Shown: positions 1,276-14,869 of the stretch, piece after piece | How the letters are laid out: each line of letters starts with the position of its first letter | How positions within the stretch are numbered: the first letter of the stretch is position 1 | Assembly (NCBI GenBank): GCA_964598025.1 | Contig: CAZRAU010000002.1 | Coordinates: 17,854 to 81,853, forward strand | DNA length: 64,000 bases | From: an uncultured bacterium | GTDB lineage: Bacteria; Arandabacterota; Arandabacteria; Arandabacterales; Arandabacteraceae | Direction: 5' to 3' | The notes under the pieces: model-generated | What the model saw: the letters and a program-made list of their open reading frames with translations, nothing else | Told to the model about the DNA's origin: nothing | Database searches by the model: none | Translations under genes and position numbers: made by a program

Positions 1276-3281
1276 ATGAAAACGTCCCGATACTGGTTGT
1301 TGAGGATGAGAGCATCGTGTCCATGGATATACAGGACAGGCTCCGCCGCCTCGGGTATACGGTCGCCGGTGCGGCCTCGACGGGACGTGATGCGATCATC
1401 AAGGCCGAGAAACTCAAGCCCGCCCTTGTGCTTATGGACATCCAACTCAAGGGAGGCATGGACGGCATAGAGGCGGCGGAGGAGATTCGACGAGGCCACG
1501 ACATCCCGGTGATCTTTCTGACAGCCTTCGCAGACACGGCCACGCTGGCGCGTGCGAAGCTTACCGGCCCATTCGGCTATATCACCAAGCCCTTCGAGGA
1601 AAAGGACCTCAGGACGAGCATCGAGATAGCGATCAACAATCACCGGATGGAGCACGCGCTCAAAGCCGAGCGGGACAAGGCTCAGAAGTATCTCGACATA
1701 GCAGGGGTGATGATCGTCGCTCTTGCCGCCGACGGGGAGATAACACTCATCAACCGAAAAGGCTGCGAGGTTCTCGGTTATGACGAAGAGGGGCTGATAG
1801 GCAGGAATTGGTTCGACACGTGCATTCCTCGTGACGCCCGGGCCGGGGCGAAAGGCACATTCGACAAGATCGCCTCCGGGGAGTTCGAGATAGTTGCGCA
1901 CGATGAGAACCCCGTGGTCACCAGCTCGGGCGAAGAGAGAATCATCCTGTGGTACAACAGCGCCATACTTGATGAGACAGGCGCATTCGCGGGTTATCTG
2001 AGTTCGGGTGAGGACATCACCGAGCGAAGGAAGGCAGAGAGAGAAAGGGAAAACCTGCAGGCACAGATAGTCCAGATGCAGAAGATGGACGCGATCGGGA
2101 CGCTTGCCGGCGGAATCGCCCACGACTTCAACAATATCCTTACCACCATACAGGGCAACACCGAGCTTGCGTTGCTCAAGATCGGTCCGAATGACGAACT
2201 ACGGAGGAAACTGGACCAGATTCACATGGCTGCGGATCGGGCCGCCAATCTTACGAGGCAGCTTCTCATCTTCAGCAGGAAGCGTCCGGTAAAGATAGAG
2301 GCGGTCGATATCAATGAAACCGTGGAGAACATGCTGGACATGCTCGGCCGTCTTATCGGGGAGGAGATCAGGATCGAGACTCATCTTGCCGATCACGTTC
2401 CGCTTCTGCGCGCGGATCGAACCAACCTGGAGCAGATCCTGCTGAATCTGGTGGTTAACGCCAGGGACGCAATGCCGAATGGCGGGGCCATCGGAATCAG
2501 CACATCTTATGCCCCGTCCCTCAAGGCACTGGGAGCAACCGGCGATGGGGCCGGACCGGTCAAGGCGGTATGTCTGGCCGTGGAAGACAATGGAGTCGGG
2601 ATCGACAAGGACACGGTCGCGAAGATCTTCGATCCTTTCTTCACAACCAAGGGGATGGGGAAGGGCACCGGTTTGGGCTTGTCGGTCGTCTACGGGATCT
2701 GCGAACAGCATGGGGGCTGGGTCGAGGTAGACAGCGAGCCCGGCAGGGGCTCTACATTCAGCATATATCTGCCCGCCGTCACCGAAGACAAGAGTGGGGC
2801 TGTGGGAGAAGAGGGCTCGAGCCCGAATCTTGTCGGCGACGGGGAGCGAGTTCTCATTGTGGAAGACGAACCTGCTGTCTTGGATATCACTGAGACCGTC
2901 CTCAGAGCCCACGGCTATCAAGTGTTCCCGGCCGCCAGCGCCGAGGAAGGCCTCAGGATCTTCGACAGCGAGAAGGGGAAACTCGACCTGATCTTCAGTG
3001 ACGTTGTGCTACCGGGCATGAGCGGGTTGGATTTTATCGATGCGGTCGTATCACGCGGCTTCGGCGGAGGCATCCTGTTTGGAAGCGGCTATACCGACAA
3101 TAAGTCCCAGTGGCCGGCAATCTGTGAAAGAGGGTACAAGTTCCTGTCGAAGCCATATCCCCTCCAGAGCCTGCTCAGGTCGGTGAAGGAAATCCTCGAG
3201 AGCACCCGGGCGGAGACGCGTGCCGAGGGAATCGGCATGGAAGACAGCCAGTTGGCGTCTGGTCGGCCCATCATCGCCTGA
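1272..3281 (+). CDS. hybrid sensor histidine kinase / response regulator (REC-PAS-HisKA-HATPase-REC)
   Basis: N-terminal receiver (ILVVEDE...LMDIQL...VIFLTAF), PAS, H-box [19 protein letters not shown]-boxes [12 protein letters not shown] / [12 protein letters not shown]-terminal receiver (VLIVEDE...[12 protein letters not shown]...[11 protein letters not shown]). Confidence 0.88.
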
Positions 3282-3491
3282 GTTTGGGCCGGTCGGTTTG
3301 GCGAACTCGCGCACGCTTCATTTCGCGTTATTCCGGGGAAGCTTCATAACGGTCAACCAGAACCCCTCGATTGCCTTGACGACCTTCATGAATTGCTCAA
3401 GACCGATGGGTTTCGTGATGAAGCAATTGGCGTGCAGATTGTAGATCTTGATGATATCCCCCGCCGTCTGGGGCGGCCCTTTCGCAATCGG

Positions 3492-5402
3492 TCATCCTTG
3501 CCGTCCGATTGTGAAGTGGAAGGTCGTGCCTTCCCCGGGCTCCGATTCCACCCAGATCCTCCCGCCATGGCGCTCGACGATCTTCTTGCAGATGGTCAGC
3601 CCTATGCCGGTGCCTGGGTACTCGTCCTTGCGGTGCAACCGCTGAAATATCACGAAGATCCGATCTCTGTACTCCGGGCCGATGCCGATACCGTTGTCCC
3701 GTACCGAAAACGACCATTGATCTCCGTCTTCCTGTGCGGAGATGTGGATTCGGGGCGCCTCCGTACCCCTGAACTTGATCCCGTTCTCGATGAGATTCTG
3801 GAATAACCGCGCGAGCTGTGATTCGTCTGCGAAGACAACGGGCAGATCATCACTGGTTATCACAGCTGAGGCCTGTCTGATAACGTTCTGCAGGCTCGCA
3901 ATCGCCCTGGCGAGCGCTGTGGCCGAATCGACCCTGTCGAATAACTTCGGTCCCGTGCTCAGCGTCGAATAGGAGAGCAAATCGCTAATCATACGTTGCA
4001 TCCTGTTGGCACCATCAACCGCAAAGCCGATGAATTCGAGGGCATCGCCATCGAGTCTGTCCCTGTAACGCCTCTCCAGCAGCTGCGTATAGCTCGAGAT
4101 CATGCGCAATGGTTCCTGCAAGTCATGCGATGCGACATAGGCAAACTGCTCCAGATCGCTGTTCGACCGCTTGAGTTCCTCGTTGTACCGTTTGACCTGC
4201 TCTTCCGCCCATCTCTTTTCGGTTATGTCCTCACCGGAACTCAACGTGCCTATGATCTCGCCGGCATCATCCTTGAGGACGGTATTATGCCACGCGATCA
4301 GACGTTCCTCGCTGGGTTTCACTATAACGGGGTTCTCATGGCGCCCAGCGCCGTCGACTTCGCCCGCAAGGAGCGCGCGGAAGAGGTCCAGGGTCCTTTT
4401 CCGACACCGTGCCGGTATGAAATCGTCAAACCAGTTTCTGCCGACAACGGCGGTTGGTTCGCGACCAAGTATCTCACAGCCCTTCTGGTTTATCATGCTG
4501 ACTTGCCCGGCGGGATCGATGGCTATCAGCATGACCCCGGCTACATCGAGATAGCGCTGGGTGCGATCTCTTTCCTGGCGCAAGGCCTTCTCGGTGAGCT
4601 TGCGGTCGGTTATGTCGCTCACTATCCCATCGAAGCAAAGAACGGTGCCTTGGTCATCCTTGTCCGGAACACCGTGGTCACTGAGCCAACGCACTTCTCC
4701 GGTCTCTTTGTGCACTACTCTGTATTCGAGCCTATACTCGCTCCCGTTGGTGCGGGCATCGGCTAGTCTGCTTAGTGTTGTTTCTGCGTCGTCCGGGTGA
4801 ATCGACTTGGACCGGGTCTGATGAAGATCACAGAGATCTTCCGGATTGTAACCCGTCCAGTCCTTCCATCGCGGCGACATGTAAGTCATGGTGCCGGTTT
4901 CGTCGGGCAGCGATGTATAGACGGCATCCGGGATATTGCGAACCAGGTTTTCGAATCTGTCTCTGGCCTCCCGAATTTCAGCCTCTGCTTGTTTGCGCTC
5001 GGTGATATCCTCAATGGCCAGGAGGATCATGCGGGCGTCATCCGGCGCCCCATAGAGCCTCCTGGCGTTTAAAGACATGATGCGGAGGCCGATCTTTGGG
5101 AAGTTGTGCCTAACCTCAAAACCGTCGAAACTGGTTTCCGCCGGGAGAATGGCCTCCAGGAGGTGTCTGAGTCTGGGGATGTCCCACTGCCCATGGCCCA
5201 GGTCATAGACACGTCTGCCGACCGTCTCCTCTTCGCCAATCTGAAAGACCCGGTAGAAACAAGGATTGGCGCAAATGACTCTCAGCCGGTCATCGAGAAC
5301 AAGCACAGGTTCACGAACAGTTGCAATGATGGTCTCGGCGATTCCTTCGATTAGCAGCATAACTCGCTCCGCCTCATGGCGTTCCAATGGAATCCGGCAC
5401 AA
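3492..5402 (-). CDS. multi-PAS sensor histidine kinase (HisKA + HATPase); first in-frame ATG at 5360 is the likelier start (track start 5402 is TTG)
   Basis: Several PAS-like segments, H-box SHDLQEPLRMISSYTQLL, C-terminal HATPase DNGIGI...GTGIGLTICKKIVERHGGRIWVESEPGEGTTF. Confidence 0.85.
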   Translation of the reverse strand: MCRIPLERHEAERVMLLIEGIAETIIATVREPVLVLDDRLRVICANPCFYRVFQIGEEETVGRRVYDLGHGQWDIPRLRHLLEAILPAETSFDGFEVRHNFPKIGLRIMSLNARRLYGAPDDARMILLAIEDITERKQAEAEIREARDRFENLVRNIPDAVYTSLPDETGTMTYMSPRWKDWTGYNPEDLCDLHQTRSKSIHPDDAETTLSRLADARTNGSEYRLEYRVVHKETGEVRWLSDHGVPDKDDQGTVLCFDGIVSDITDRKLTEKALRQERDRTQRYLDVAGVMLIAIDPAGQVSMINQKGCEILGREPTAVVGRNWFDDFIPARCRKRTLDLFRALLAGEVDGAGRHENPVIVKPSEERLIAWHNTVLKDDAGEIIGTLSSGEDITEKRWAEEQVKRYNEELKRSNSDLEQFAYVASHDLQEPLRMISSYTQLLERRYRDRLDGDALEFIGFAVDGANRMQRMISDLLSYSTLSTGPKLFDRVDSATALARAIASLQNVIRQASAVITSDDLPVVFADESQLARLFQNLIENGIKFRGTEAPRIHISAQEDGDQWSFSVRDNGIGIGPEYRDRIFVIFQRLHRKDEYPGTGIGLTICKKIVERHGGRIWVESEPGEGTTFHFTIGRQG

Positions 5403-5553
5403 TCGACCCAGGGCGACGATGTCCGAGCCAGGACCGGCATAGGCACAAAGAAACGATCCGGCCCCCCTGGGGGCCGGCGTGCAGGTCGCGAGCGGCCCGG
5501 CAGGCGTCCGGACCTGGGCCGCCGGGCCCTGGATGTCGTCAAATGGATCACGC

Positions 5554-5563
5554 GGTGACCTCC
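5554..5563 (-). repeat. GGAGGTCACC motif copy (inverted orientation, 154 nt upstream of minus-strand HK ORF)
   Basis: Plus strand reads GGTGACCTCC. Confidence 0.6.
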
Positions 5564-5720
5564 AATAGGCAGTGTCGGCAGCCCTTCACTACGTCTTTAG
5601 CTTCGATCCGGCGGGTTGTGCGTTCGACCTTGGATACCCGGGCGGCGATTCGGGTCAATGAATTCGGTATTCACTATTTCAAGCTAATGCAAGACGCACA
5701 GAATGTCGATAACCGCCGAT

Positions 5721-5730
5721 GGAGGTCACC
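5721..5730 (+). repeat. GGAGGTCACC motif copy abutting ATG 5731
   Basis: gatGGAGGTCACCATGaag; SD-like GGAGG 5 nt before ATG. Confidence 0.7.
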
Positions 5731-6783
5731 ATGAAGGGCCATTGTGCGCTTGTGCCAGCCGCTTCGTTTGGCGGAGCTAGTGGTTTTTTCAAGCATCCGT
5801 TCGGCATGTTGAATTGCCTCTCTGCCTCACGATGGTGTATCAGAGGAGGGCGCGTGGCAGAAGCGAACCATGGTCCGGAACCGGTCAGCATCCTACTGGT
5901 TGAAGACGATCCCGGCGACGTGCGTCTCATTCGTGAGATGCTCACCGAATTACAGGCGGGCAGTTTCTCACTCACCGTGGCGGACACCATTGAGACGGCG
6001 ATTGCGACTATGGCGTCTGAGCGGCCGGAGGTGATCCTCCTCGATCTTTGCCTGCCCGACAGCCGGGGACTGGACACATTCATGCAAATCCGCGATCGCA
6101 CGGCGGACATACCGATCGTTGTTCTCACAGGCGTCAGCCAGTGGGACACGGGCATCGCGGCCGTCCAGAAGGGGGCTCAGGATTATCTGGTGAAGGGGCA
6201 GGTCGACGGGCAGTTACTGCGGCGGTCGATCCACTATGCGGTTGAGCGCTATCGCCTGATCATAGAGCTCGAACACTCCCGTGAGCGGGAGGAGAGGTTG
6301 CGGGAGCTCCGATCGCTGGACAGACTCGCCGGCCGGCCGCCGGATGACTGCGACGGTAAGCCGTGGGCGGAAGCGGTCCTGCGTAGTGCGCTCCCCCGGA
6401 AGTTTGTTTCACTCACTGAGAATCTCGGCGGATTGCTCGAAACGGCGCTGGAAGAGGACATTCACAAGTCAGAGAGGAAGGTGCCCGGTGAGATCAGGTC
6501 GATGGCCGAGGAGATCGGGCGGCTTGGCGGCGGCCCGCGCGATGTGGTCGACATTTACTATACGGCAATCCGCGAACGCATGGAAGTCAGCGATGCCGGC
6601 AAAGCAAAGGCCTATGTCCGGGAGGGCCGTCTTGTGCTGCTCGAGCTTCTAGGATACCTGGCTTCTTATTATCGGACCCTGTCTCTAGGTATAGTCACAG
6701 ACCCAAGAGGAGTCATCCGTGGGTACAGAGAGGCACCACCGGAGCCTGCGGGTGGGCGGACCGGTCGAATTGAGGGGGGCTGA
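5731..6783 (+). CDS. response-regulator receiver fused to a KaiA-like C-terminal helical domain (KaiA3-like); track ORF starts at 5719
   Basis: Receiver motifs VSILLVEDDPGD...VILLDLCLPDSRG...IVVLTG...KGAQDYLVKG. C-terminal 60 aa (DVVDIYYTAIRERMEVSDAGKAKAYVREGRLVLLELLGYLASYYR) resemble the C-terminus of cyanobacterial KaiA as I recall it (VVEIHMELMDEF...YRLTLIDVIAHLCEMYRRSIP). Position immediately upstream of kaiB-kaiC with 1-nt spacing. Confidence 0.6.
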   Translation: MKGHCALVPAASFGGASGFFKHPFGMLNCLSASRWCIRGGRVAEANHGPEPVSILLVEDDPGDVRLIREMLTELQAGSFSLTVADTIETAIATMASERPEVILLDLCLPDSRGLDTFMQIRDRTADIPIVVLTGVSQWDTGIAAVQKGAQDYLVKGQVDGQLLRRSIHYAVERYRLIIELEHSREREERLRELRSLDRLAGRPPDDCDGKPWAEAVLRSALPRKFVSLTENLGGLLETALEEDIHKSERKVPGEIRSMAEEIGRLGGGPRDVVDIYYTAIRERMEVSDAGKAKAYVREGRLVLLELLGYLASYYRTLSLGIVTDPRGVIRGYREAPPEPAGGRTGRIEGG

Positions 6784-6784
6784 T

Positions 6785-7090
6785 ATGAGAGGTTGCATCA
6801 AGTTGAAACTGTATATCTCCGGGCATACCGTCAGGTCTGACAACGCGATCAGCCATCTTCGCAGCATCTGCGAGGAAATGGTACGGGGCGGCTATGAGAT
6901 AAGGGTCATAGATGTCACGAGACACCCCGACCAGGCGGAGATCGATGGGGTCCTGGCCACGCCGACCCTGATCAAGGATTCGCCTCCGCCGGCTGCAAGG
7001 CTAATCGGGGACCTGTCCGATAGAGAGAGAGTAGTCACGGCGCTGGATCTGCGGTGTGAGCCGGCGGCACATGGCGCGAAGTCACTCTGA
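6785..7090 (+). CDS. kaiB: circadian clock protein KaiB homolog
   Basis: IKLKLYISGHT...EIRVIDVTRHPDQAEIDGVLATPTLIKDSPPPAARLIGDLSDRERVVTALDL matches the KaiB thioredoxin-like family signature (KLxLYV.G, ATPTL, IGDLS). ATG 6785 is one nt after the stop of the upstream gene. Confidence 0.9.
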   Translation: MRGCIKLKLYISGHTVRSDNAISHLRSICEEMVRGGYEIRVIDVTRHPDQAEIDGVLATPTLIKDSPPPAARLIGDLSDRERVVTALDLRCEPAAHGAKSL

Positions 7091-7112
7091 CCGAACAGGG
7101 GGTAACCATAGG

Positions 7113-8648
7113 ATGAGAACCAAGAGACAGGGTGCCGACATCGACAGGGTGCCGACCGGTATGCCCGGCTTCGACCTGATATCCCATGGCGGCCTGCCGG
7201 CCGATAGGAGCACGCTGATCACGGGAACGCCCGGAAGCGGAAAAACCATGTTCGCAGTTCAATTCCTGGCCGAGGGGATACGAAGACACGGGCAGTCCGG
7301 CGTTTTCGTCACCTTCGAGGAATCCACGGATGATCTGCGGAAGAACTTCATCAGCCTCGGGTGGGACATCGAGAAATGGGAGAGCGAGAACAAGTGGCGT
7401 TTTGTTGATGTATCGCCGCACGCGGGGCAACGGTTGATACGAGTCGGCAAGTTCGACCTGAGCGCTCTTCTCACAAGGATCGGGAGTGCCGTGGAGCAGG
7501 TTGGCGCCAAGCGCGTGGCCCTGGATTCACTGGGCGCCATATTCACGCAGGTAACGGATCGTTCCACGCTGCGGAGCGAGATCTTCCGCATAATGTCCGT
7601 GCTGAAAGAAATGGAAGTCACGGCGGTTCTCACCGGCGAGCACGGCAGGGACGATGAGGTCATCACGAGAAGCGACATGGAGGAATTCACCGCCGACAAC
7701 GTGGTGATAACGCGGAATATTCGTGAAGATGAGCGACGGCGGAGAACCATCGAAATCCTCAAGTTCCGGGGCACAACCCACGAGAAAGGTGAACACCCCT
7801 TCACAATAATAAGGCGCCATGGTATTGTCGTGCTGCCTCTTTCGTCAATCGAGCTGAAGCAAAAATCTACGGAAATTCGCATGACCTCCGGCAACGTCAC
7901 ACTGGACGGGATGTGTGACGGGGGGTACTTCAGGGATTTCATCGTCGCCGTAAATGGGCCGACCGGGACGGGGAAGTCCCTCATGGCGACAGAGTTTGTC
8001 AAAGGCGGACTCCATGAGGGGGACAGATGTCTCTTTCTTGGCTTCGAAGAGAGCAAGGATCAGATTTTCAGGAACGCGTCTCGCTGGGGAATCGACTTCG
8101 CGGGCGCTGAATCGGCAGGATTGCTGAAGGTGTCGTGCGAGTATCCCGAGGCAATGGGGCTGGAGGACCATTCGCAAAGGCTGCGGACTCTGGTCAAGGA
8201 ATTCAAACCCAACCGCCTGGCCCTGGACAGCCTCTCGGCCCTGGAGCGGGTAGCCTCAGGCAAGGGATATAGAAAGTTCGTTGTTGGATTGACGGCATTT
8301 CTCAAGCAGAAGGGAATCGCCTCCTTGCTTACGGTCAACACTCCGGCAATAGCGGGGTCCCCGTCGATGCCGGAGGCCGAGATATCGAGTCTGGCGGATG
8401 CGATCATCCTGCTGAGGTATGTGGAGGTCCACGGTGAGATGAGGCGGGGGCTGACCGTCCTCAAGATGCGCGGTACGAGTCACGACAAGGAGATCCGCGA
8501 ATTCGCCATTGACGGGACCGGAATGCATATAGGGCAGCCGTTTCGCAATGTGAGCGGCATCCTGACGGGATACAGTCACAACGTGGTTCCGAGCGAGCTT
8601 GAACGGGTAGGTGAACTATTCGGGGAATCCAGCTCTGCCAGGAACTGA
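7113..8648 (+). CDS. kaiC: circadian clock protein KaiC homolog (double RecA-like ATPase); start 7113 preferred over track 7056, which overlaps kaiB
   Basis: Two Walker A motifs GTPGSGKT and GPTGTGKS. Catalytic EE pairs (VTFEES, LGFEES). C-terminal region AIILLRYVEVHGEMRRGLTVLKMRGTSHDKEIREF typical of KaiC. Candidate phospho-sites ISS aligned to S. elongatus IST. SD agggg before ATG 7113. Confidence 0.92.
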   Translation: MRTKRQGADIDRVPTGMPGFDLISHGGLPADRSTLITGTPGSGKTMFAVQFLAEGIRRHGQSGVFVTFEESTDDLRKNFISLGWDIEKWESENKWRFVDVSPHAGQRLIRVGKFDLSALLTRIGSAVEQVGAKRVALDSLGAIFTQVTDRSTLRSEIFRIMSVLKEMEVTAVLTGEHGRDDEVITRSDMEEFTADNVVITRNIREDERRRRTIEILKFRGTTHEKGEHPFTIIRRHGIVVLPLSSIELKQKSTEIRMTSGNVTLDGMCDGGYFRDFIVAVNGPTGTGKSLMATEFVKGGLHEGDRCLFLGFEESKDQIFRNASRWGIDFAGAESAGLLKVSCEYPEAMGLEDHSQRLRTLVKEFKPNRLALDSLSALERVASGKGYRKFVVGLTAFLKQKGIASLLTVNTPAIAGSPSMPEAEISSLADAIILLRYVEVHGEMRRGLTVLKMRGTSHDKEIREFAIDGTGMHIGQPFRNVSGILTGYSHNVVPSELERVGELFGESSSARN

Positions 8649-8675: not shown

Positions 8676-10655
8676 ATGGAAGGCGGACCAAGTTCGCGCC
8701 GGGAGGTGAAGTCACACTCGATGTTTGCCGAAACCACGCGCATTCTGCTGATCGAAGACGACCCCGGTGATTGCAGACTCATCGAGGGAATGCTCCAGGA
8801 TGCGGTCGGCCCGGGCTTCGAATTGCTCACGGCCGGAAGCCTTGCGGCTGCCATTGAACAGGTCGATGCCGGCAAGCCGGACGTCGTGCTGATGGATCTC
8901 CTCCTTCCCGACAGCGGCGCTCCCGACACGTTCACATCCTTCCGCTCCAAGGTGTCCGGTGTCCCCGTAGTCGTGCTGACAGGTCTGGACGATACCGCCG
9001 CAGCGTTGAAGGCGCTTCATGACGGTGCGCAGGACTACCTCATCAAAGGACGGATCGACGGCGGCCTTCTGGCCCGCTCGATTCGCTATGCGATAGAACG
9101 GCATCAAACCCGGAATAAGCTCGAGCATCAGTCGCTGAAACTGATGGACCGCGAGAAACGGCTGGATACCATCATAAGGGCCAGTGCCGAAGGCATCGCA
9201 ATTGTGGATCGAGATGGGATCGTTCTCTTCGTCAACCCCGCCGCGGAAGCGATCCTCGGCAGAGACGCCGCGGATGTCACAGGACGGGCGTTCGGGTTTC
9301 CCCTGGTTTCGGGGCTGCAAACCGAAGTCGATGTGATCAGCGCCGATGATAGAGTTCGCGTGGCGGAGATGAGGGTCACTGAGGTCGACTGGGACGGCTC
9401 GCGGGTGCAGCTCGTGTCGCTCAGGGACATAACCCAGCACAAAGAGATGCTCAAGGAGCTCGAGGAATCCCGGAAGCAGCAGATCCACTTGAAAGACCGG
9501 TTCTTGTCCCACGTGTCCCATGAGCTCCGGTCGCCCCTCGCGGCGGTGGACCAGTTCGTGTCCATCCTGCTTGATGAGATCCCGGGCAAGCTGAGCGAGC
9601 GGCAGCGCGAGTATCTCGGGATAGTATCGCGCAATGTCGAGCAGTTAGGTGCGATGATCAACGATCTGCTCCTGGTAACGCGGAGCATGGAGGACAGGGT
9701 GTCCATCAACCGGCGTCAGGTGGACGTGTGGAAGGTTCTGAAAGAGGCAGTGTCGACCTTCAAGGCGGCGGCGGCGGAGAAGGTCGTGAAACTGGCGGTA
9801 GATGAATCGGAGGATCTTCCCCGCGTGCTTGCGGACCCTGTCCGGATCAAGGAGGTCCTGACCAATCTAATCGATAATGCCCTCAGATTCACGCCGCCCA
9901 ATGGGACCATCACGATCGGTGCATGGGTGGATGCGCAGGACCCGGATTTCGTCCGGGTATGGGTGACGGACTCGGGAAGTGGCATTGAGGAGCAGGAGAT
10001 CGAGAAGATATTCGATCCTCTCCACCAGAGCGGAAGGGGTAATGACTCGGGCCGGCAGGGTCTCGGACTGGGGCTTTCCATCTGCAAGAGTCTGGTGATT
10101 CGGCAGGGTGGGAGAATCTGGGCGGAAAGTAGGCCCGGGCACGGGACGACCATCTCGTTCACGCTACCGGCATTCTCGCTGGCCGGCCTGCTTGTCCCGA
10201 TTCTGACGCGCGACAACCTGAAGCGCGGCGTGCTGGCAGTCGTCAAAATCCTGATGGTCTTCCGGCCCGAAGCAGGGATGGTGGAATATGTAGACCGCGC
10301 AGTTCGCGCGGCACGGGATAACTTGAACCGGTGCATCGTCGAAAACAGAGATGCCGTGCTTCCAACGGTCGGGGCTGATGACAGCCATCGGTCAACGGTC
10401 ACTGTCGCATGCACCGATCGGAGAGGCGCCGAGATCCTGGTGCGGATGGCGAGGGACCGGCTTTCCCGGGTCGACGACCTGGGACCTCCACAGGTGGAAA
10501 CAACGGTAGTGTTCGACCTGGTCGAGATACCACCGGATATAGCTGAAAGTCCGGCCGAACTGGCGGCGGCCGCCCTGGCCGATGCCATCGAGGGCCTGGT
10601 CTTCGACAGTTTCGAAAAGGAGGAATGCCAATGGCAGCAAAGACAATCCTCGTGA
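8676..10655 (+). CDS. REC-PAS-HisKA-HATPase sensor kinase with an uncharacterised ~170-aa C-terminal extension; alternative start ATG 8721
   Basis: RILLIEDDPGD...VVLMDLLLPDSG receiver, PAS, H-box SHVSHELRSPLAAVDQF, HATPase DSGSGIE...GLGLGLSICKSLVIRQGGRIWAESRPGHGTT, then a 170-aa tail without recognisable motifs. Confidence 0.8.
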   Translation: MEGGPSSRREVKSHSMFAETTRILLIEDDPGDCRLIEGMLQDAVGPGFELLTAGSLAAAIEQVDAGKPDVVLMDLLLPDSGAPDTFTSFRSKVSGVPVVVLTGLDDTAAALKALHDGAQDYLIKGRIDGGLLARSIRYAIERHQTRNKLEHQSLKLMDREKRLDTIIRASAEGIAIVDRDGIVLFVNPAAEAILGRDAADVTGRAFGFPLVSGLQTEVDVISADDRVRVAEMRVTEVDWDGSRVQLVSLRDITQHKEMLKELEESRKQQIHLKDRFLSHVSHELRSPLAAVDQFVSILLDEIPGKLSERQREYLGIVSRNVEQLGAMINDLLLVTRSMEDRVSINRRQVDVWKVLKEAVSTFKAAAAEKVVKLAVDESEDLPRVLADPVRIKEVLTNLIDNALRFTPPNGTITIGAWVDAQDPDFVRVWVTDSGSGIEEQEIEKIFDPLHQSGRGNDSGRQGLGLGLSICKSLVIRQGGRIWAESRPGHGTTISFTLPAFSLAGLLVPILTRDNLKRGVLAVVKILMVFRPEAGMVEYVDRAVRAARDNLNRCIVENRDAVLPTVGADDSHRSTVTVACTDRRGAEILVRMARDRLSRVDDLGPPQVETTVVFDLVEIPPDIAESPAELAAAALADAIEGLVFDSFEKEECQWQQRQSS

Positions 10656-11041
10656 TAGACGATGACCGAGATCTCCTGCTCGGGTTGTCGGTCAGGCTGA
10701 AGGCGGAAGGCTACGAGGTCATAACGGCGGCCGATGCGGTCGCCGCTACCGGCGCGGCCCGTAAAGGGGACCCGGACGTCATAATCCTGGACCTTGGTCT
10801 ACCCGGAGGCGACGGCTACCTGGTGATGCAGCGGCTGCGTTCGATGCTGGTGTCACTGGCGCCGATCATCGTGCTCACGGCGCGCGACCCGGCAACCGAT
10901 GAATGCAGGGCAACCCAACTGGGGGCCTTCACTTACCTCCAGAAGCCGGTCAGCAATGATAGGTTGTTGAGAGCTATCAGGCGTGCGCTTAATGAACCGG
11001 TAGAGCCGGAGAAAGACCGCCTGAGTTTGATCCCGGGCTGA
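10625..11041 (+). CDS. single-domain CheY-like response regulator
   Basis: KTILVIDDDRD...VIILDLGLPGGDG...IIVLTARD...YLQKP. Confidence 0.8.
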   Translation: MPMAAKTILVIDDDRDLLLGLSVRLKAEGYEVITAADAVAATGAARKGDPDVIILDLGLPGGDGYLVMQRLRSMLVSLAPIIVLTARDPATDECRATQLGAFTYLQKPVSNDRLLRAIRRALNEPVEPEKDRLSLIPG

Positions 11042-11467: not shown

Positions 11468-14400
11468 GTGATGGTCGCCGAGAAGAGAAAGCGAAAAGCC
11501 AAACCGACTGAGCCGGACAGACCCCGGGGGAAAGCCTGTGGGCACGGGCCCAAAGCGAAATCCTGCTCCCCAGGGACCCCATCCGATGAACCCGTCGCGA
11601 TTGTAGGCATTGGGGCGTCCGCCGGCGGGCTTGAAGCTCTTGAGGGGTTCTTCGACCACCTGCCTCCGAAGAGTGGCATAGCCTATGTGGTAATCCAGCA
11701 CCTGGCGCCGCAGCATAAGAGCGTCATGGATGCGATCTTGTCCAAACACACCGGCATGAGGATCAACAGGATCACCTCCGGTATGAAAGCCGAACCCGAC
11801 AACATATATCTCAACCAGCCGGATAAAGACGTGACGATTGTAAATGGACTTCTGTGTCTGGCCGAGCTGGAAGAACCGCACGGTATCAGGTTGCCGATTG
11901 ACCGTTTTCTGCGTTCCCTTGCCGCGGACCGGGGCGAGAAAGCCGTCTGCGTCATCCTCTCAGGTACCGGGAGTGACGGTACTCAGGGGTTGAAGGCTAT
12001 CAAGGAGACGGGCGGAATGGCAATGGTCCAGGAGAAGGAACAGGCGAGGTACGAGGGCATGCCGGCGAGTGCTCTTGCAACAGGCCTTGTGGATTTCGAG
12101 CTGCCCGTTGAGGATATGGCCGACGAGATCATGAAATTCGCATCACACACCTATGTCAGATGCCAGCAGGCGGTCACCGCCCCGGAAGAAGATATGGAGG
12201 GCTCGTTTGCAAGGATATTCTCGTTTATCCGTTCGGAAACGGGTCATGACTTCTCGGGCTACAAGAGGAAAACCACCCAACGCAGGATAGAGCGTCGGAT
12301 GGCGCTGCATGGAATCGATGCGGTGGACGCCTATGTGACTTTTCTCAGAGAGGATTCCAATGAAGTCAAGGCGCTTTACCGGGATATGCTGATCACGGTC
12401 ACGAGTTTCTTCAGGGAACCGGAGGCTTTCGAGGTTCTTGAGAAAACGGCGGTGCACGAGCTGCTAGATACGAGAGAACCGGACACGGCCCTACGGGTCT
12501 GGGTACCCGGCTGTGGTACGGGAGAGGAAGCCTATTCCATTGCGATTTTGATTGCCGAACACCTGGCGGCAAGGAAACGGCACCTTGAGGTCCAGGTATT
12601 CGCTACCGATCTGGACGATGGCTCGATCGAGTACGCGCGGGCCGGCGTCTATCCCGCCAGCATAGCTGCGGATGTCAAAGCAAAGCGACTGGAGCGATTT
12701 TTCGTGAGTGTTGATGGTTCATGGAGGATCAAGCGGCGGATTCGGGAGATGCTTGTCTTCGCCGTCCAGGACCTTATCAAAGATCCGCCCTTCTCGAATC
12801 TCGATCTAATCAGCTGCAGGAACGTGCTCATATACTTGGACGGCGCCCTCCAAAAGGAGGTACTATCACTCTTCCACTATGTGCTTCGGCCCGGCGGGTA
12901 CCTCTTCCTTGGTTCCGCCGAGACGATCGGCGGATTCGGTGACCGGTTCGAGACGGTTGACTCAAAACACAGGATATACAGACGAAAGGAAGCTATTCAC
13001 GGTGAGGTCAAGCCACACGGCGTACCGCCGTTCTTTGAGCGACGCGGCAGGTATCCCTTAACCGGTGAGCCCAGCAGCCGCAGTGCGAGCGACATCCGGG
13101 GTCTCGCACACCGAGCAATCATCGACAAGTATACTCCCCCGTGTGTGCTGATAAACGGGAGACACGAGATTCTGTACTTCCACGGTGACACGGACAAGTA
13201 CCTGGCTTCACCGGCTGGAGAAGCCAGCCTCGACATCCTGAAGATGATCCGTCCGGAGATTCGCTATAAATTGAGCGGAGCACTCCACAGTGTTTCCAAG
13301 GGCCTTGAAACCGTCGTATGTGATGATCTAACCGTAGTGCACGGATGCGAGTCGGTCAGCCTGGATCTGGTGGTCAAGCCGGTGGAGGATCTCCGCGGGG
13401 CGCCGGGTATGATGCTGGTAGTGTTTGAGGAGAGGCGCAAGCCGAAGCCGGCGCGCCGGAGAGCCGGACGATACAAAGCCGATCACCCGGAGGATTCCAG
13501 TGCGACCGCGCTGCAACAGGAGCTGGCATCGACGAAGGAGCATTTGCAGGCGGCGATCGAGGAGCTGGAAACCAGCAATGAAGAACTCAGATCGGCCAAT
13601 GAAGAGCTCCAATCGACCAATGAGGAGCTCCAGTCGACCAATGAGGAGCTGGAAACCGCCAGGGAAGAACTGCGATCCTCAAATGAAGAGCTGGAGACCG
13701 TGGCCACGGAGCGTGAGCACAAGATACAGACGTTGTCGAAAGCGCATGACGACCTCAACAATCTGCTTGCGAGCACCGACATCGGAACCATCTTCCTGGA
13801 CTTGGAACTTCGCATCAAGTTTTTCACCCCACCGACAACGGCGATCTTCAACGTGATCGAGACTGATATCGGCCGGCCGATTAGCGATATCACTACGGCG
13901 GCGAAATACGCGGGCCTCGACCGGGATGCCAGAGAGGTGCTCACGACCCTTACAAAGAAGGAGACAGAGGTTCAAACCACGGATGGGAGGTGGTTCACAG
14001 TCAAGATGCTGCCGTATCGGACGACGGACAACGTCATCAATGGCGTGGTGATCACCTTTACGGACGTCACGAGGATTAAGCGCGCGCGGGAGCACCTGGC
14101 GATAAGCAGGGTCGCGTTGGCGGCCTTTATGGAGTCGGCAACCGACGGGATGATGCTGTTCGACTCGGAGGGCAATCTCATTGAGATGAATTCCGCTGCG
14201 CTTGAGTTATTTCCACGGGGCATTCGGAAGGAAGATGTGACCGGCGAGAGTATCGCGAAGGTCCTGGGCCTTATCGGCCAAGGGGACCGAGCCGAGGATT
14301 ACTATGCAACGCTGGAGACCGGAATACCCTTCATAGATGGGGAGCGGCAGCGGCATCCGAGAATCGCGGGAAGGTACTTCTCTGCAAGGGTTTTCAGGAC

Positions 14401-14869
14401 GGGAACGGGGATCGGTGTAATACTGGCGGATGAGACCATCCAGGTTGAATTCGACAAGGCGGATAAGGCCCGCCGCTACGCCGAGCGAATCGTCGACAGC
14501 GTGCGGGAACCCATGCTTGTGCTCGACTCAGGCCTGCGAGTGATTTCGGCCAGTGCCGCGTTCTTCAGCGAGTTCGCCGCAAAGCCCCGGGAGACACTGG
14601 GCTTACAGATTCATGAGATCGGAAACGCGCTGTGGGATATACCCGAGCTGAGAGACAGGCTTGAAAAGACCCTGGCCTCAGGCCTGATTCTCAGGGACCT
14701 CGTCGTGGAGCGCGACTTGCCCGGGATCGGGAGAAGAAAGATGCTTCTCAATGGGCGTAGGCTGAAAATAGCCAAGGGTGAACCCGTAATGTTGTTGCTT
14801 ACCATCGAGAATATCTCGGAAGACGCGCCCAGCCGGGCAAACGTCACGGATACCGCGTGTGATCGGTGA
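11468..14869 (+). CDS. CheB methylesterase - CheR methyltransferase fusion protein with coiled coil and PAS domains, no kinase domain
   Basis: CheB-type VAIVGIGASAGGLEALEGFF...VVIQH. CheR-type FFREPEAFEVL...LRVWVPGCGTGEEAYSIAILI. Heptad-repeat linker. PAS-like segments to the C-terminus. Confidence 0.85.
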   Translation: MMVAEKRKRKAKPTEPDRPRGKACGHGPKAKSCSPGTPSDEPVAIVGIGASAGGLEALEGFFDHLPPKSGIAYVVIQHLAPQHKSVMDAILSKHTGMRINRITSGMKAEPDNIYLNQPDKDVTIVNGLLCLAELEEPHGIRLPIDRFLRSLAADRGEKAVCVILSGTGSDGTQGLKAIKETGGMAMVQEKEQARYEGMPASALATGLVDFELPVEDMADEIMKFASHTYVRCQQAVTAPEEDMEGSFARIFSFIRSETGHDFSGYKRKTTQRRIERRMALHGIDAVDAYVTFLREDSNEVKALYRDMLITVTSFFREPEAFEVLEKTAVHELLDTREPDTALRVWVPGCGTGEEAYSIAILIAEHLAARKRHLEVQVFATDLDDGSIEYARAGVYPASIAADVKAKRLERFFVSVDGSWRIKRRIREMLVFAVQDLIKDPPFSNLDLISCRNVLIYLDGALQKEVLSLFHYVLRPGGYLFLGSAETIGGFGDRFETVDSKHRIYRRKEAIHGEVKPHGVPPFFERRGRYPLTGEPSSRSASDIRGLAHRAIIDKYTPPCVLINGRHEILYFHGDTDKYLASPAGEASLDILKMIRPEIRYKLSGALHSVSKGLETVVCDDLTVVHGCESVSLDLVVKPVEDLRGAPGMMLVVFEERRKPKPARRRAGRYKADHPEDSSATALQQELASTKEHLQAAIEELETSNEELRSANEELQSTNEELQSTNEELETAREELRSSNEELETVATEREHKIQTLSKAHDDLNNLLASTDIGTIFLDLELRIKFFTPPTTAIFNVIETDIGRPISDITTAAKYAGLDRDAREVLTTLTKKETEVQTTDGRWFTVKMLPYRTTDNVINGVVITFTDVTRIKRAREHLAISRVALAAFMESATDGMMLFDSEGNLIEMNSAALELFPRGIRKEDVTGESIAKVLGLIGQGDRAEDYYATLETGIPFIDGERQRHPRIAGRYFSARVFRTGTGIGVILADETIQVEFDKADKARRYAERIVDSVREPMLVLDSGLRVISASAAFFSEFAAKPRETLGLQIHEIGNALWDIPELRDRLEKTLASGLILRDLVVERDLPGIGRRKMLLNGRRLKIAKGEPVMLLLTIENISEDAPSRANVTDTACDR
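13559..13699 (+). repeat. in-frame tandem repeat, 6.7 x 21 nt, encoding EEL(Q/E)(S/T)(S/T/A)N heptads inside the CheB-CheR gene
   Basis: gaggagctggaaaccagcaat / gaagaactcagatcggccaat / gaagagctccaatcgaccaat / gaggagctccagtcgaccaat ... Confidence 0.9.

What the first reader, a model, noticed from the sequence alone, without database searches (positions are those of the whole stretch)
5731..8648. KaiA3-like / KaiB / KaiC module in a non-cyanobacterial signalling island
Three adjacent plus-strand genes carry recognisable Kai signatures.
- kaiA3-like: a true receiver domain fused to a C-terminal helical domain. Its last ~60 residues (DVVDIYYTAIRERMEV...YVREGRLVLLELLGYLASYYR) resemble, from memory, the KaiC-binding C-terminus of cyanobacterial KaiA (VVEIHMELMDEF...DYRLTLIDVIAHLCEMYRRSIP).
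- kaiB: KLKLYISGHT, ATPTLIK, IGDLSDRE.
- kaiC: both Walker A motifs, both EE catalytic pairs, a conserved A-loop/C-terminal region, and candidate phospho-sites S-S at the position of S431/T432.
- Coupling: kaiB starts 1 nt after the upstream stop, which suggests translational coupling.
- Context: KaiB/KaiC pairs outside cyanobacteria are known but little characterised. A KaiA-type partner with a receiver N-terminus has so far been described essentially only as KaiA3 of Synechocystis and a few relatives. The GC content and gene context here (PAS/GAF hybrid kinases, Wzm/Wzt LPS cluster) argue for a non-cyanobacterial host.
- Implication: this locus would be a candidate complete three-component Kai timer or stress switch.
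Basis: partly seen in the sequence, partly recalled or inferred. Interest (0 to 1): 0.88.

Follow-up and report, generated by a model that had tools for sequence, protein, structure and literature searches.

The report
KaiA3–KaiB–KaiC clock module, non-cyanobacterial
Three adjacent genes encode a receiver-domain KaiA3-type activator, KaiB and KaiC, a three-part protein-phosphorylation timer already described in Synechocystis and a few other bacteria, so this is a divergent new example from an uncultured non-cyanobacterium, not a new kind of system.

Summary
The genes are a response regulator with a C-terminal helical domain (309 aa; true start GTG 5854, not 5731), kaiB (6785-7090) and kaiC (7113-8648).

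**Context in relatives.** Among 59 non-cyanobacterial genomic relatives, 56 have kaiB next and 54 have kaiC next.

**KaiC.** It groups with KaiA3-linked (KaiC3 / group III) KaiCs, not with KaiC1 or the long-tailed Rhodobacter type.

**Host.** Probably not a cyanobacterium. The closest named relatives of one neighbouring gene are Candidatus Eisenbacteria.

**Novelty.** kaiA3B3C3 clusters outside cyanobacteria were published in 2024 (Köbler et al.), so this is a new member of a known kind.

**What is unusual.**
- The window KaiC is the most divergent of 64 KaiA3-linked KaiCs.
- It has unique changes next to the phosphosites: T426P, H429E and T432S in S. elongatus numbering.
- A paralogous REC-PAS histidine kinase and a single-domain response regulator follow directly.

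Whether it oscillates is untested.

The parts
5854..6783 (+). kaiA3-like gene, 309 aa. Receiver domain at about 5881-6207 (D18, D19, acceptor D64, T92, K114). Long linker helix 6208-6327. KaiA-like four-helix C-domain at about 6379-6684.
6785..7090 (+). kaiB, 101 aa. The start lies 1 nt after the kaiA3-like stop, with a GAGGGGGG ribosome-binding site inside the upstream gene.
   Evidence: PF07689, E 1e-23. PDB KaiB matches at E about 1e-22. Below both NCBIfam KaiB equivalog cut-offs, 87.8 against 110 bits and 83.5 against 145.3, so divergent. Sequence read.
7113..8648 (+). kaiC, 511 aa, double-domain, of the KaiC3 / group III type. Walker A at residues 38-45 and 282-289, EE at 69-70 and 312-313, candidate phosphosites S425 and S426, C-terminal tail motif SELERVGELF at 494-503.
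   Evidence: PF06745 twice. NCBIfam NF006799, 645.6 bits against 408. Best PDB match is ancestral KaiC-beta 8zn5, E 1e-176. 54-59% identity to KaiA3-linked KaiCs against 47.7% to KaiC1. Residue census.
8676..10655 (+). Hybrid sensor kinase (receiver, PAS, HisKA, HATPase_c), starting 27 nt after kaiC. Its receiver is 46% identical to the KaiA3-like receiver.
   Evidence: Pfam. BLASTP of the two receivers, E 1e-43. A kinase core lies within 2.5 kb downstream of kaiC in 22 of 40 evaluable non-cyanobacterial loci and 0 of 11 cyanobacterial loci. Its second-best NCBIfam match is NF006800, a kinase model whose N-terminus also matches KaiB.
10625..11041 (+). Single-domain response regulator whose start overlaps the kinase gene by 31 nt. 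Probably the last gene of a five-gene operon.
   Evidence: PF00072, E 4e-24. Coordinates. No terminator-like site stands out between 5854 and 11041.

Best explanation
This is a KaiA3-KaiB-KaiC module, the 'second' Kai system first characterised in Synechocystis, carried by an uncultured non-cyanobacterium and probably transcribed as one operon with a REC-PAS histidine kinase and a single-domain response regulator.

**Likely mechanism, by homology.**
- KaiC is a double-ring ATPase that phosphorylates and dephosphorylates itself at S425/S426.
- The KaiA3-like protein dimerises through its C-terminal four-helix domain, binds the KaiC C-terminal tail and promotes autophosphorylation.
- KaiB binds phosphorylated KaiC, sequesters the KaiA3-like protein and so favours dephosphorylation.
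- This gives a slow phosphorylation cycle, either an oscillator or an hourglass.

**Extra inference.** The intact receiver domain (acceptor D64) lets a two-component kinase gate the KaiA-like activity. The adjacent kinase and response regulator connect the KaiC state to input or output signalling.

**Shown here:** homology, predicted fold, gene order and intact catalytic motifs. **Inferred:** all biochemical steps and the role of the receiver.
For: - Gene 1 is collinear with Synechocystis KaiA3 (E 3e-35, 272 aa) and with Crocosphaera KaiA3 (E 2e-50). Its 28% identity lies within the 25-37% range of the published non-cyanobacterial orthologues.
- Profile comparison aligns all four helices with a KaiA family alignment (E 3.2e-4).
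- kaiB follows in 56 of 59 and kaiC in 54 of 59 non-cyanobacterial relatives. This also holds for variants whose N-terminus is PAS instead of a receiver.
- KaiC keeps the Walker lysines, both EE pairs, the serine at the S431 position and the tail motif shared by KaiA3-linked KaiCs.
- Köbler et al. showed that KaiA3 binds KaiC3 and stimulates its phosphorylation, that KaiB3 opposes this, and that the three proteins oscillate in vitro. Mukaiyama et al. found the same for the Cyanothece set.
Against: - The window protein itself misses Pfam KaiA. The sequence link to canonical KaiA is weak (hhalign probability 39%; Foldseek E 0.1).
- The window KaiC departs at 38 of 213 positions that are at least 95% conserved in 63 other KaiA3-linked KaiCs, against 0-8 for the ten of them sampled for comparison. 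The changes include T426P, H429E and T432S (S. elongatus numbering) and T289S in the CII Walker A motif. Its phosphorylation cycle may therefore differ or be lost.
- KaiB falls below the NCBIfam equivalog cut-offs.
- No non-cyanobacterial KaiA3 system has been tested. R. rubrum KaiC was arrhythmic, but it was tried only with S. elongatus KaiA.
Confidence: 0.75

Rival explanations
1. The module has been re-purposed or has partly decayed. KaiC no longer runs an ordered two-site phosphorylation cycle and acts as an ATPase or stress-response switch, as proposed for the KaiBC pairs of Legionella and Pseudomonas. The KaiA3-like protein would then only modulate it.
For: The window KaiC has 38 of 213 deviations at highly conserved positions. 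Unique among 64 are P in place of the T426-equivalent, E in place of the H429-equivalent, S in place of the T432-equivalent, and GKS instead of GKT in CII. From my own knowledge of the S. elongatus structures, T426 and H429 contact phospho-S431. KaiB and the KaiA3 C-domain are also at or near the top for divergence in their families. Stress roles of KaiBC homologues are cited.
Against: All three reading frames are intact. The catalytic lysines, the EE pairs, S425 and the KaiA3-type tail motif are kept. The genes are tightly packed. Divergence in all three partners together fits co-evolution or a fast-evolving lineage as well as it fits decay.
Confidence: 0.15
2. The receiver-helical protein is an output response regulator that receives phosphate from the adjacent kinase downstream of KaiC. 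It would not be a KaiA-like activator acting on KaiC.
Against: It is homologous over its full length to KaiA3, which binds KaiC3 and stimulates it directly. The gene sits at the kaiA position in 54-56 of 59 loci. Variants with PAS or GAF in place of the receiver keep the same context, so the C-domain, not phosphotransfer, is the constant part. No DNA-binding or enzymatic output domain is present.
Confidence: 0.08
3. The KaiA-like resemblance of the C-terminal domain is a chance similarity between helical sequences.
For: No Pfam or PDB sequence hit for the window protein alone. Family profile against PDB KaiA gives only E 3.3.
Confidence: 0.02

Closest known systems
KaiA3-KaiB3-KaiC3 of Synechocystis sp. 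PCC 6803 (Sll0485 / WP_010873803.1; Köbler et al. [quoted passage not shown]
   Same: The architecture is the same: receiver, linker and KaiA-like four-helix domain of about 290-310 aa. The gene order kaiA3-kaiB-kaiC is the same. KaiC belongs to the same clade and has the same C-terminal tail motif. The acceptor Asp aligns with D65 of KaiA3.
   Different: Identity to Sll0485 is only 28%. The host is probably Candidatus Eisenbacteria-like. A REC-PAS kinase and a response regulator follow kaiC directly, which none of the 11 evaluable cyanobacterial loci show. KaiC is unusually divergent around the phosphosites. There is no biochemical evidence.
Canonical KaiABC of Synechococcus elongatus PCC 7942
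   Same: A three-component logic is expected. KaiB and KaiC are clear homologues (E 1e-21 to 1e-23 and 1e-143). The C-domain fold matches the KaiA C-domain.
   Different: KaiA has a pseudo-receiver that lacks phosphotransfer, whereas here the receiver is complete. There is no Pfam KaiA match. KaiC is 47.7% identical to KaiC1 of Thermosynechococcus elongatus. Köbler et al. found that S. elongatus KaiA cannot act on KaiC3.
KaiBC hourglass of Rhodobacter sphaeroides (KaiC2 type; PDB 8dba, 568 aa)
   Same: It is a non-cyanobacterial Kai system.
   Different: That KaiC is 568 aa, against 511 aa here. Its extended C-terminus mediates hexamer-hexamer contacts and removes the need for KaiA (quoted). 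Here the tail is short and of KaiC3 type, the match is much weaker (307 bits against 592), and a KaiA-type gene is present.

Membership tests
KaiA3 (chimeric receiver-KaiA homologue, Sll0485 type) | N-terminal response-regulator receiver with a phospho-acceptor Asp | tested here: met
KaiA3 (chimeric receiver-KaiA homologue, Sll0485 type) | Full-length sequence homology to Sll0485 and its orthologues | tested here: met
   BLASTP E 3e-35, 28% identity over 272 aa, to WP_010873803.1. E 2e-50 to the Crocosphaera watsonii orthologue. Published non-cyanobacterial orthologues are 25-37% identical to Sll0485.
KaiA3 (chimeric receiver-KaiA homologue, Sll0485 type) | C-terminal KaiA-like four-helix bundle | tested here: met
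KaiA3 (chimeric receiver-KaiA homologue, Sll0485 type) | Gene located directly upstream of kaiB3 (and usually kaiC3) | tested here: met
   The same order is seen in relatives.
KaiA3 (chimeric receiver-KaiA homologue, Sll0485 type) | Binds KaiC3 and stimulates its autophosphorylation | not testable with these tools
   This needs purified proteins. It is known for Synechocystis only.
Canonical KaiA (Pfam PF07688) | Match to the KaiA C-terminal domain profile at the curated threshold | tested here: not met
   No hit for the window protein even at E 10. Twelve of 59 family members hit weakly, best E 1.9e-4. hhalign of family against family gives E 3.2e-4, probability 39%.
Canonical KaiA (Pfam PF07688) | N-terminal pseudo-receiver without phosphotransfer residues | tested here: not met
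   The receiver here has all five signature residues.
KaiB (PF07689) | KaiB domain profile match | tested here: met
   83.2 bits against a cut-off of 27. Below both NCBIfam equivalog cut-offs, 87.8 against 110 bits and 83.5 against 145.3.
KaiC (double-domain) | Two KaiC/RecA-like domains, each with a Walker A motif and a catalytic EE pair | tested here: met
   PF06745 in two stretches. NF006799, 645.6 bits against 408. Residues.
KaiC (double-domain) | Ser/Thr pair at the S431/T432 position, plus T426 | tested here: inconclusive
   S425-S426 are present, so T432 becomes S. The T426 equivalent is Pro and the H429 equivalent is Glu, both unique among 64 sequences.
KaiC3 / group III KaiC | Groups with KaiA3-linked KaiCs rather than with KaiC1 | tested here: met
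   54-59% identity against 47.7%. The NJ tree places it inside the clade on a long branch, without bootstrap support. The best PDB match is the ancestral node KaiC-beta that joins groups I-II and III.
KaiC2 type (Rhodobacter hourglass) | C-terminal extension of about 50 aa forming a coiled coil between hexamers | tested here: not met
   511 aa against the 568-aa Rhodobacter chain. The tail ends 8 residues after the KaiC3-type motif. 307 bits to 8dba.

The most novel reading that the evidence does not exclude
A non-cyanobacterial KaiA3-KaiB-KaiC timer with rewired phosphosite chemistry. The two residues that hold phospho-S431 in S. elongatus KaiC are replaced (T426P, H429E), and T432 is Ser. 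It might therefore run a single-site or differently ordered cycle. Its KaiA-like activity would be switched by phosphorylation of a true receiver, perhaps by the paralogous REC-PAS kinase encoded just downstream. That would couple a Kai timer directly to two-component signalling in a non-phototroph.
Probability: 0.2. Interest if true: 0.6.

Novelty: new member of a known kind. Interest (0 to 1): 0.4.

Why it matters
It has not been tested whether three-component Kai systems outside cyanobacteria keep time. Only the Synechocystis and Cyanothece KaiA3B3C3 sets have been shown to oscillate. The one proteobacterial KaiC of this clade that was tried received the wrong KaiA.

This locus offers a compact operon from a probably non-photosynthetic lineage, with an intact receiver on the KaiA-like protein and a linked kinase. 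It could be expressed to ask whether such modules oscillate and whether two-component phosphorylation gates them.

The wider survey also shows that the KaiA3-type domain is common, is spread over many phyla, and is fused to receiver, PAS, GAF or MEDS sensor domains.

Tried and rejected
- **Sequence search of the C-domain alone against PDB.** Only noise.
- **Family profile against PDB.** KaiA appears in the right register, but at E 3.3.
- **Foldseek.** KaiA is first but E is 0.1, not significant on its own.
- **First word-indexed homologue search.** It found only 18 proteins and wrongly suggested a rare family. The exhaustive search and the genome scan corrected this.
- **Exact look-up of the 309-aa protein.** It gave no contig.
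- **Metagenome scan for close KaiC relatives.** Nothing above 59% identity, so I could not test whether the unusual phosphosite residues are conserved in a lineage.
- **Promoter and terminator scan.** At background level.
- **Rfam and tRNA scans of the window.** Empty.
- **Rejected readings.** A KaiC2/Rhodobacter-type system (no tail extension) and RadA/RecA identity (KaiC models score far higher).
Full report
**What is in the sequence.** The + strand carries five tightly spaced genes.

| Coordinates | Product |
|---|---|
| 5854-6783 | receiver-domain protein with an unassigned C-terminal domain |
| 6785-7090 | kaiB (Pfam PF07689, E 1e-23) |
| 7113-8648 | kaiC (PF06745 twice, E 5e-110) |
| 8676-10655 | REC-PAS-HisKA-HATPase hybrid kinase |
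| 10625-11041 | single-domain response regulator |

GTG 5854 follows GGAGGAGGG, gives the N-terminal length seen in homologues, and equals the 309-aa product in public gene calls. Those calls also give 101 aa for KaiB and 511 aa for KaiC.
- The 1-nt gap between the first stop and the kaiB ATG is real.
- No convincing terminator interrupts the five genes.

**Is the first protein a KaiA3?** Taken alone, its C-terminal 135 aa match no Pfam family and no PDB sequence. The link comes from relatives.
- An exhaustive profile search finds 1827 clusters at 50% identity, and the domain is C-terminal in every listed hit.
- A scan of species-representative genomes finds 298 loci. They include Microcystis, Crocosphaera, Cyanothece, Roseiflexus and Chloroflexaceae, which are taxa where KaiA3 was published, plus many other phyla.
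- I took the Synechocystis KaiA3 sequence (WP_010873803.1) from Supplementary Dataset 1 of Köbler et al. It aligns with the window protein end to end: 28% identity over 272 aa, E 3e-35.
- The Crocosphaera orthologue gives E 2e-50.
- Published non-cyanobacterial orthologues are 25-37% identical to Sll0485, so this protein lies in the same range.

**Is the C-domain KaiA-like?**
- AlphaFold2 gives confident models (pLDDT 84 for the full length, 82 for the domain) with four helices after a long linker helix.
- Foldseek also puts KaiA first, but at a non-significant E of 0.1.
- At the sequence level, 12 of 59 family members touch Pfam KaiA (best E 1.9e-4) and 6 touch RsbU_N. The window member touches neither.
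- hhalign of the family against a 30-sequence KaiA alignment gives E 3.2e-4 and probability 39% over 92 columns. It pairs VVEIH with VVEIH and GRLxVLELMGYLxSYYR with YRLTLIDVIAHLCEMYRR.
- The remote relationship to canonical KaiA is therefore supported mainly by fold and register. Membership of the KaiA3 family is firm.

**Context in relatives.** Of 59 non-cyanobacterial loci, 56 have kaiB next and 54 have kaiC next.
- Microcystis has kaiA3-kaiB without an adjacent kaiC, as published.
- Three relatives with a PAS domain in place of the receiver keep the same X-kaiB-kaiC-kinase order.
- A histidine-kinase core follows kaiC within 2.5 kb in 22 of 40 evaluable non-cyanobacterial loci and in 0 of 11 cyanobacterial loci.
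- In the window, the kinase's receiver is 46% identical to the KaiA3-like receiver.
- The kinase core's second-best NCBIfam match is a kinase model whose N-terminus also matches KaiB. From my own knowledge, that is the SasA architecture.

**KaiC and KaiB.**
- KaiC passes the NCBIfam KaiC model NF006799 (645.6 bits against 408) and narrowly misses TIGR02655 (531.5 against 546.25).
- Its best PDB match is 8zn5. This is the reconstructed ancestor KaiC-beta, at the node that joins cyanobacterial groups I-II with group III.
- It is 54-59% identical to KaiA3-linked KaiCs and 47.7% to T. elongatus KaiC1. It sits inside the KaiA3-linked clade in an NJ tree without bootstraps, and it shares that clade's tail motif.
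- It is much further from the 568-aa Rhodobacter KaiC (307 bits) and has no tail extension.
- Walker lysines, both EE pairs and the serine at the S431 position are kept.
- It is an outlier. It departs at 38 of 213 positions that are at least 95% conserved in 63 other KaiA3-linked KaiCs, against 0-8 for the ten of them I sampled for comparison. Unique changes are T420P (= T426 of S. elongatus), H423E (= H429), T426S (= T432) and GKS in the CII Walker A motif.
- KaiB and the KaiA3 C-domain are also at or near the top for divergence in their sets.
- I found no close relative with which to test whether these changes are conserved.

**Host and surroundings.**
- GC content is 57-63%.
- Positions 1-31 kb hold a dense two-component island and 33-64 kb hold a polysaccharide/LPS cluster.
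- A carbamoyltransferase in the window has Candidatus Eisenbacteria MAG proteins as its closest named relatives (76% and 71% identity). The identical protein lies on an unnamed 86.8-kb NCBI contig.
- Together with the position of KaiC outside the cyanobacterial sub-clade and the kinase context, a non-cyanobacterial host is likely. It is not proven.

**Mechanism.** By homology to the Synechocystis system, the gene-1 protein should bind KaiC and promote its autophosphorylation. KaiB should oppose this by recruiting the KaiA3-like protein into a ternary complex. The complete receiver suggests that phosphorylation gates this activity, and the adjacent kinase and regulator are candidate partners. 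These steps are inferred.

Whether the module is a self-sustained oscillator, an hourglass or a switch is open. Only cyanobacterial KaiA3 sets have been shown to cycle, and R. rubrum KaiC was tested only with S. elongatus KaiA.

**Novelty and score.**
- kaiA3B3C3 synteny outside cyanobacteria is published (Köbler et al. 2024). It is also noted for Bradyrhizobium and for R. rubrum Rru_A3293.
- This locus is a new, divergent member of a known kind.
- Its specific points of interest are the altered phosphosite surroundings of KaiC, the intact receiver and the linked two-component genes. I also found the family to be much broader than the published list.
- Interest 0.4.

Noticed in passing
Proteins P0010, P0013, P0018 and P0019-P0130; loci L003 and L005: The KaiA3-type C-domain is a module fused to different sensor N-termini. 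Of 113 top cluster representatives, 66 have a receiver, about 56 have PAS, 8 have GAF and 2 have MEDS. The PAS variants keep the kaiB-kaiC-kinase context. The Chloroherpeton 'KaiA3 orthologue' in the published table also lacks a receiver.
   Followed up: partly
window 7113-8648 (KaiC residues 283, 289, 420, 423, 426, 428): The window KaiC is the most divergent of 64 KaiA3-linked KaiCs, with 38 of 213 deviations at conserved columns. Unique substitutions flank the phosphosites and lie in the CII Walker A motif. No relative above 59% identity was found in the metagenome scan.
   Followed up: partly
L026 (Anaerolineae MAG), 2780-5494 and 5908-8008; L005 7531-7848; L071; L084: One genome carries two tandem kaiA3-kaiB-kaiC sets. 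Several loci have an additional kaiB copy.
   Followed up: no
P0016; L016 (Microcystis) 5560-6426; the R. rubrum entry in Köbler Supplementary Dataset 1: Some family members have receivers without the acceptor Asp (for example ILMHLTG and LILLSLEIS). They are pseudo-receivers like that of canonical KaiA, which hints at how KaiA's N-domain may have arisen.
   Followed up: no
window 11468-14869; L001 1121-2779: A CheB-CheR-PAS fusion protein (1133 aa) lies just downstream of the Kai operon. A CheR/CheB fusion also lies near the kaiA3 locus of an unrelated metagenome contig.
   Followed up: no
window 8676-10655: The catalytic core of the kinase downstream of kaiC has NF006800 as its second-best NCBIfam match (E 8e-51). 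KaiB also matches the N-terminus of that model, which suggests a SasA-like core with REC-PAS replacing the KaiB-like domain.
   Followed up: partly
window 1-31300 and 33000-64000: The first half is a dense signalling island. It holds at least nine histidine kinases or response regulators, a REC-GGDEF protein and a CHASE-PAS-HK-REC-Hpt protein. The second half is a glycosyltransferase, Wzt, heptosyltransferase, carbamoyltransferase and asparagine-synthase cluster. There are no tRNA genes and no Rfam hits.
   Followed up: partly
window 5458-5477 (- strand): A perfect 8-bp all-GC hairpin followed by a T-rich tail lies in the 450-bp divergent intergenic region between the minus-strand PAS kinase and the kaiA3-like gene. 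It is not placed to terminate any called gene.
   Followed up: no
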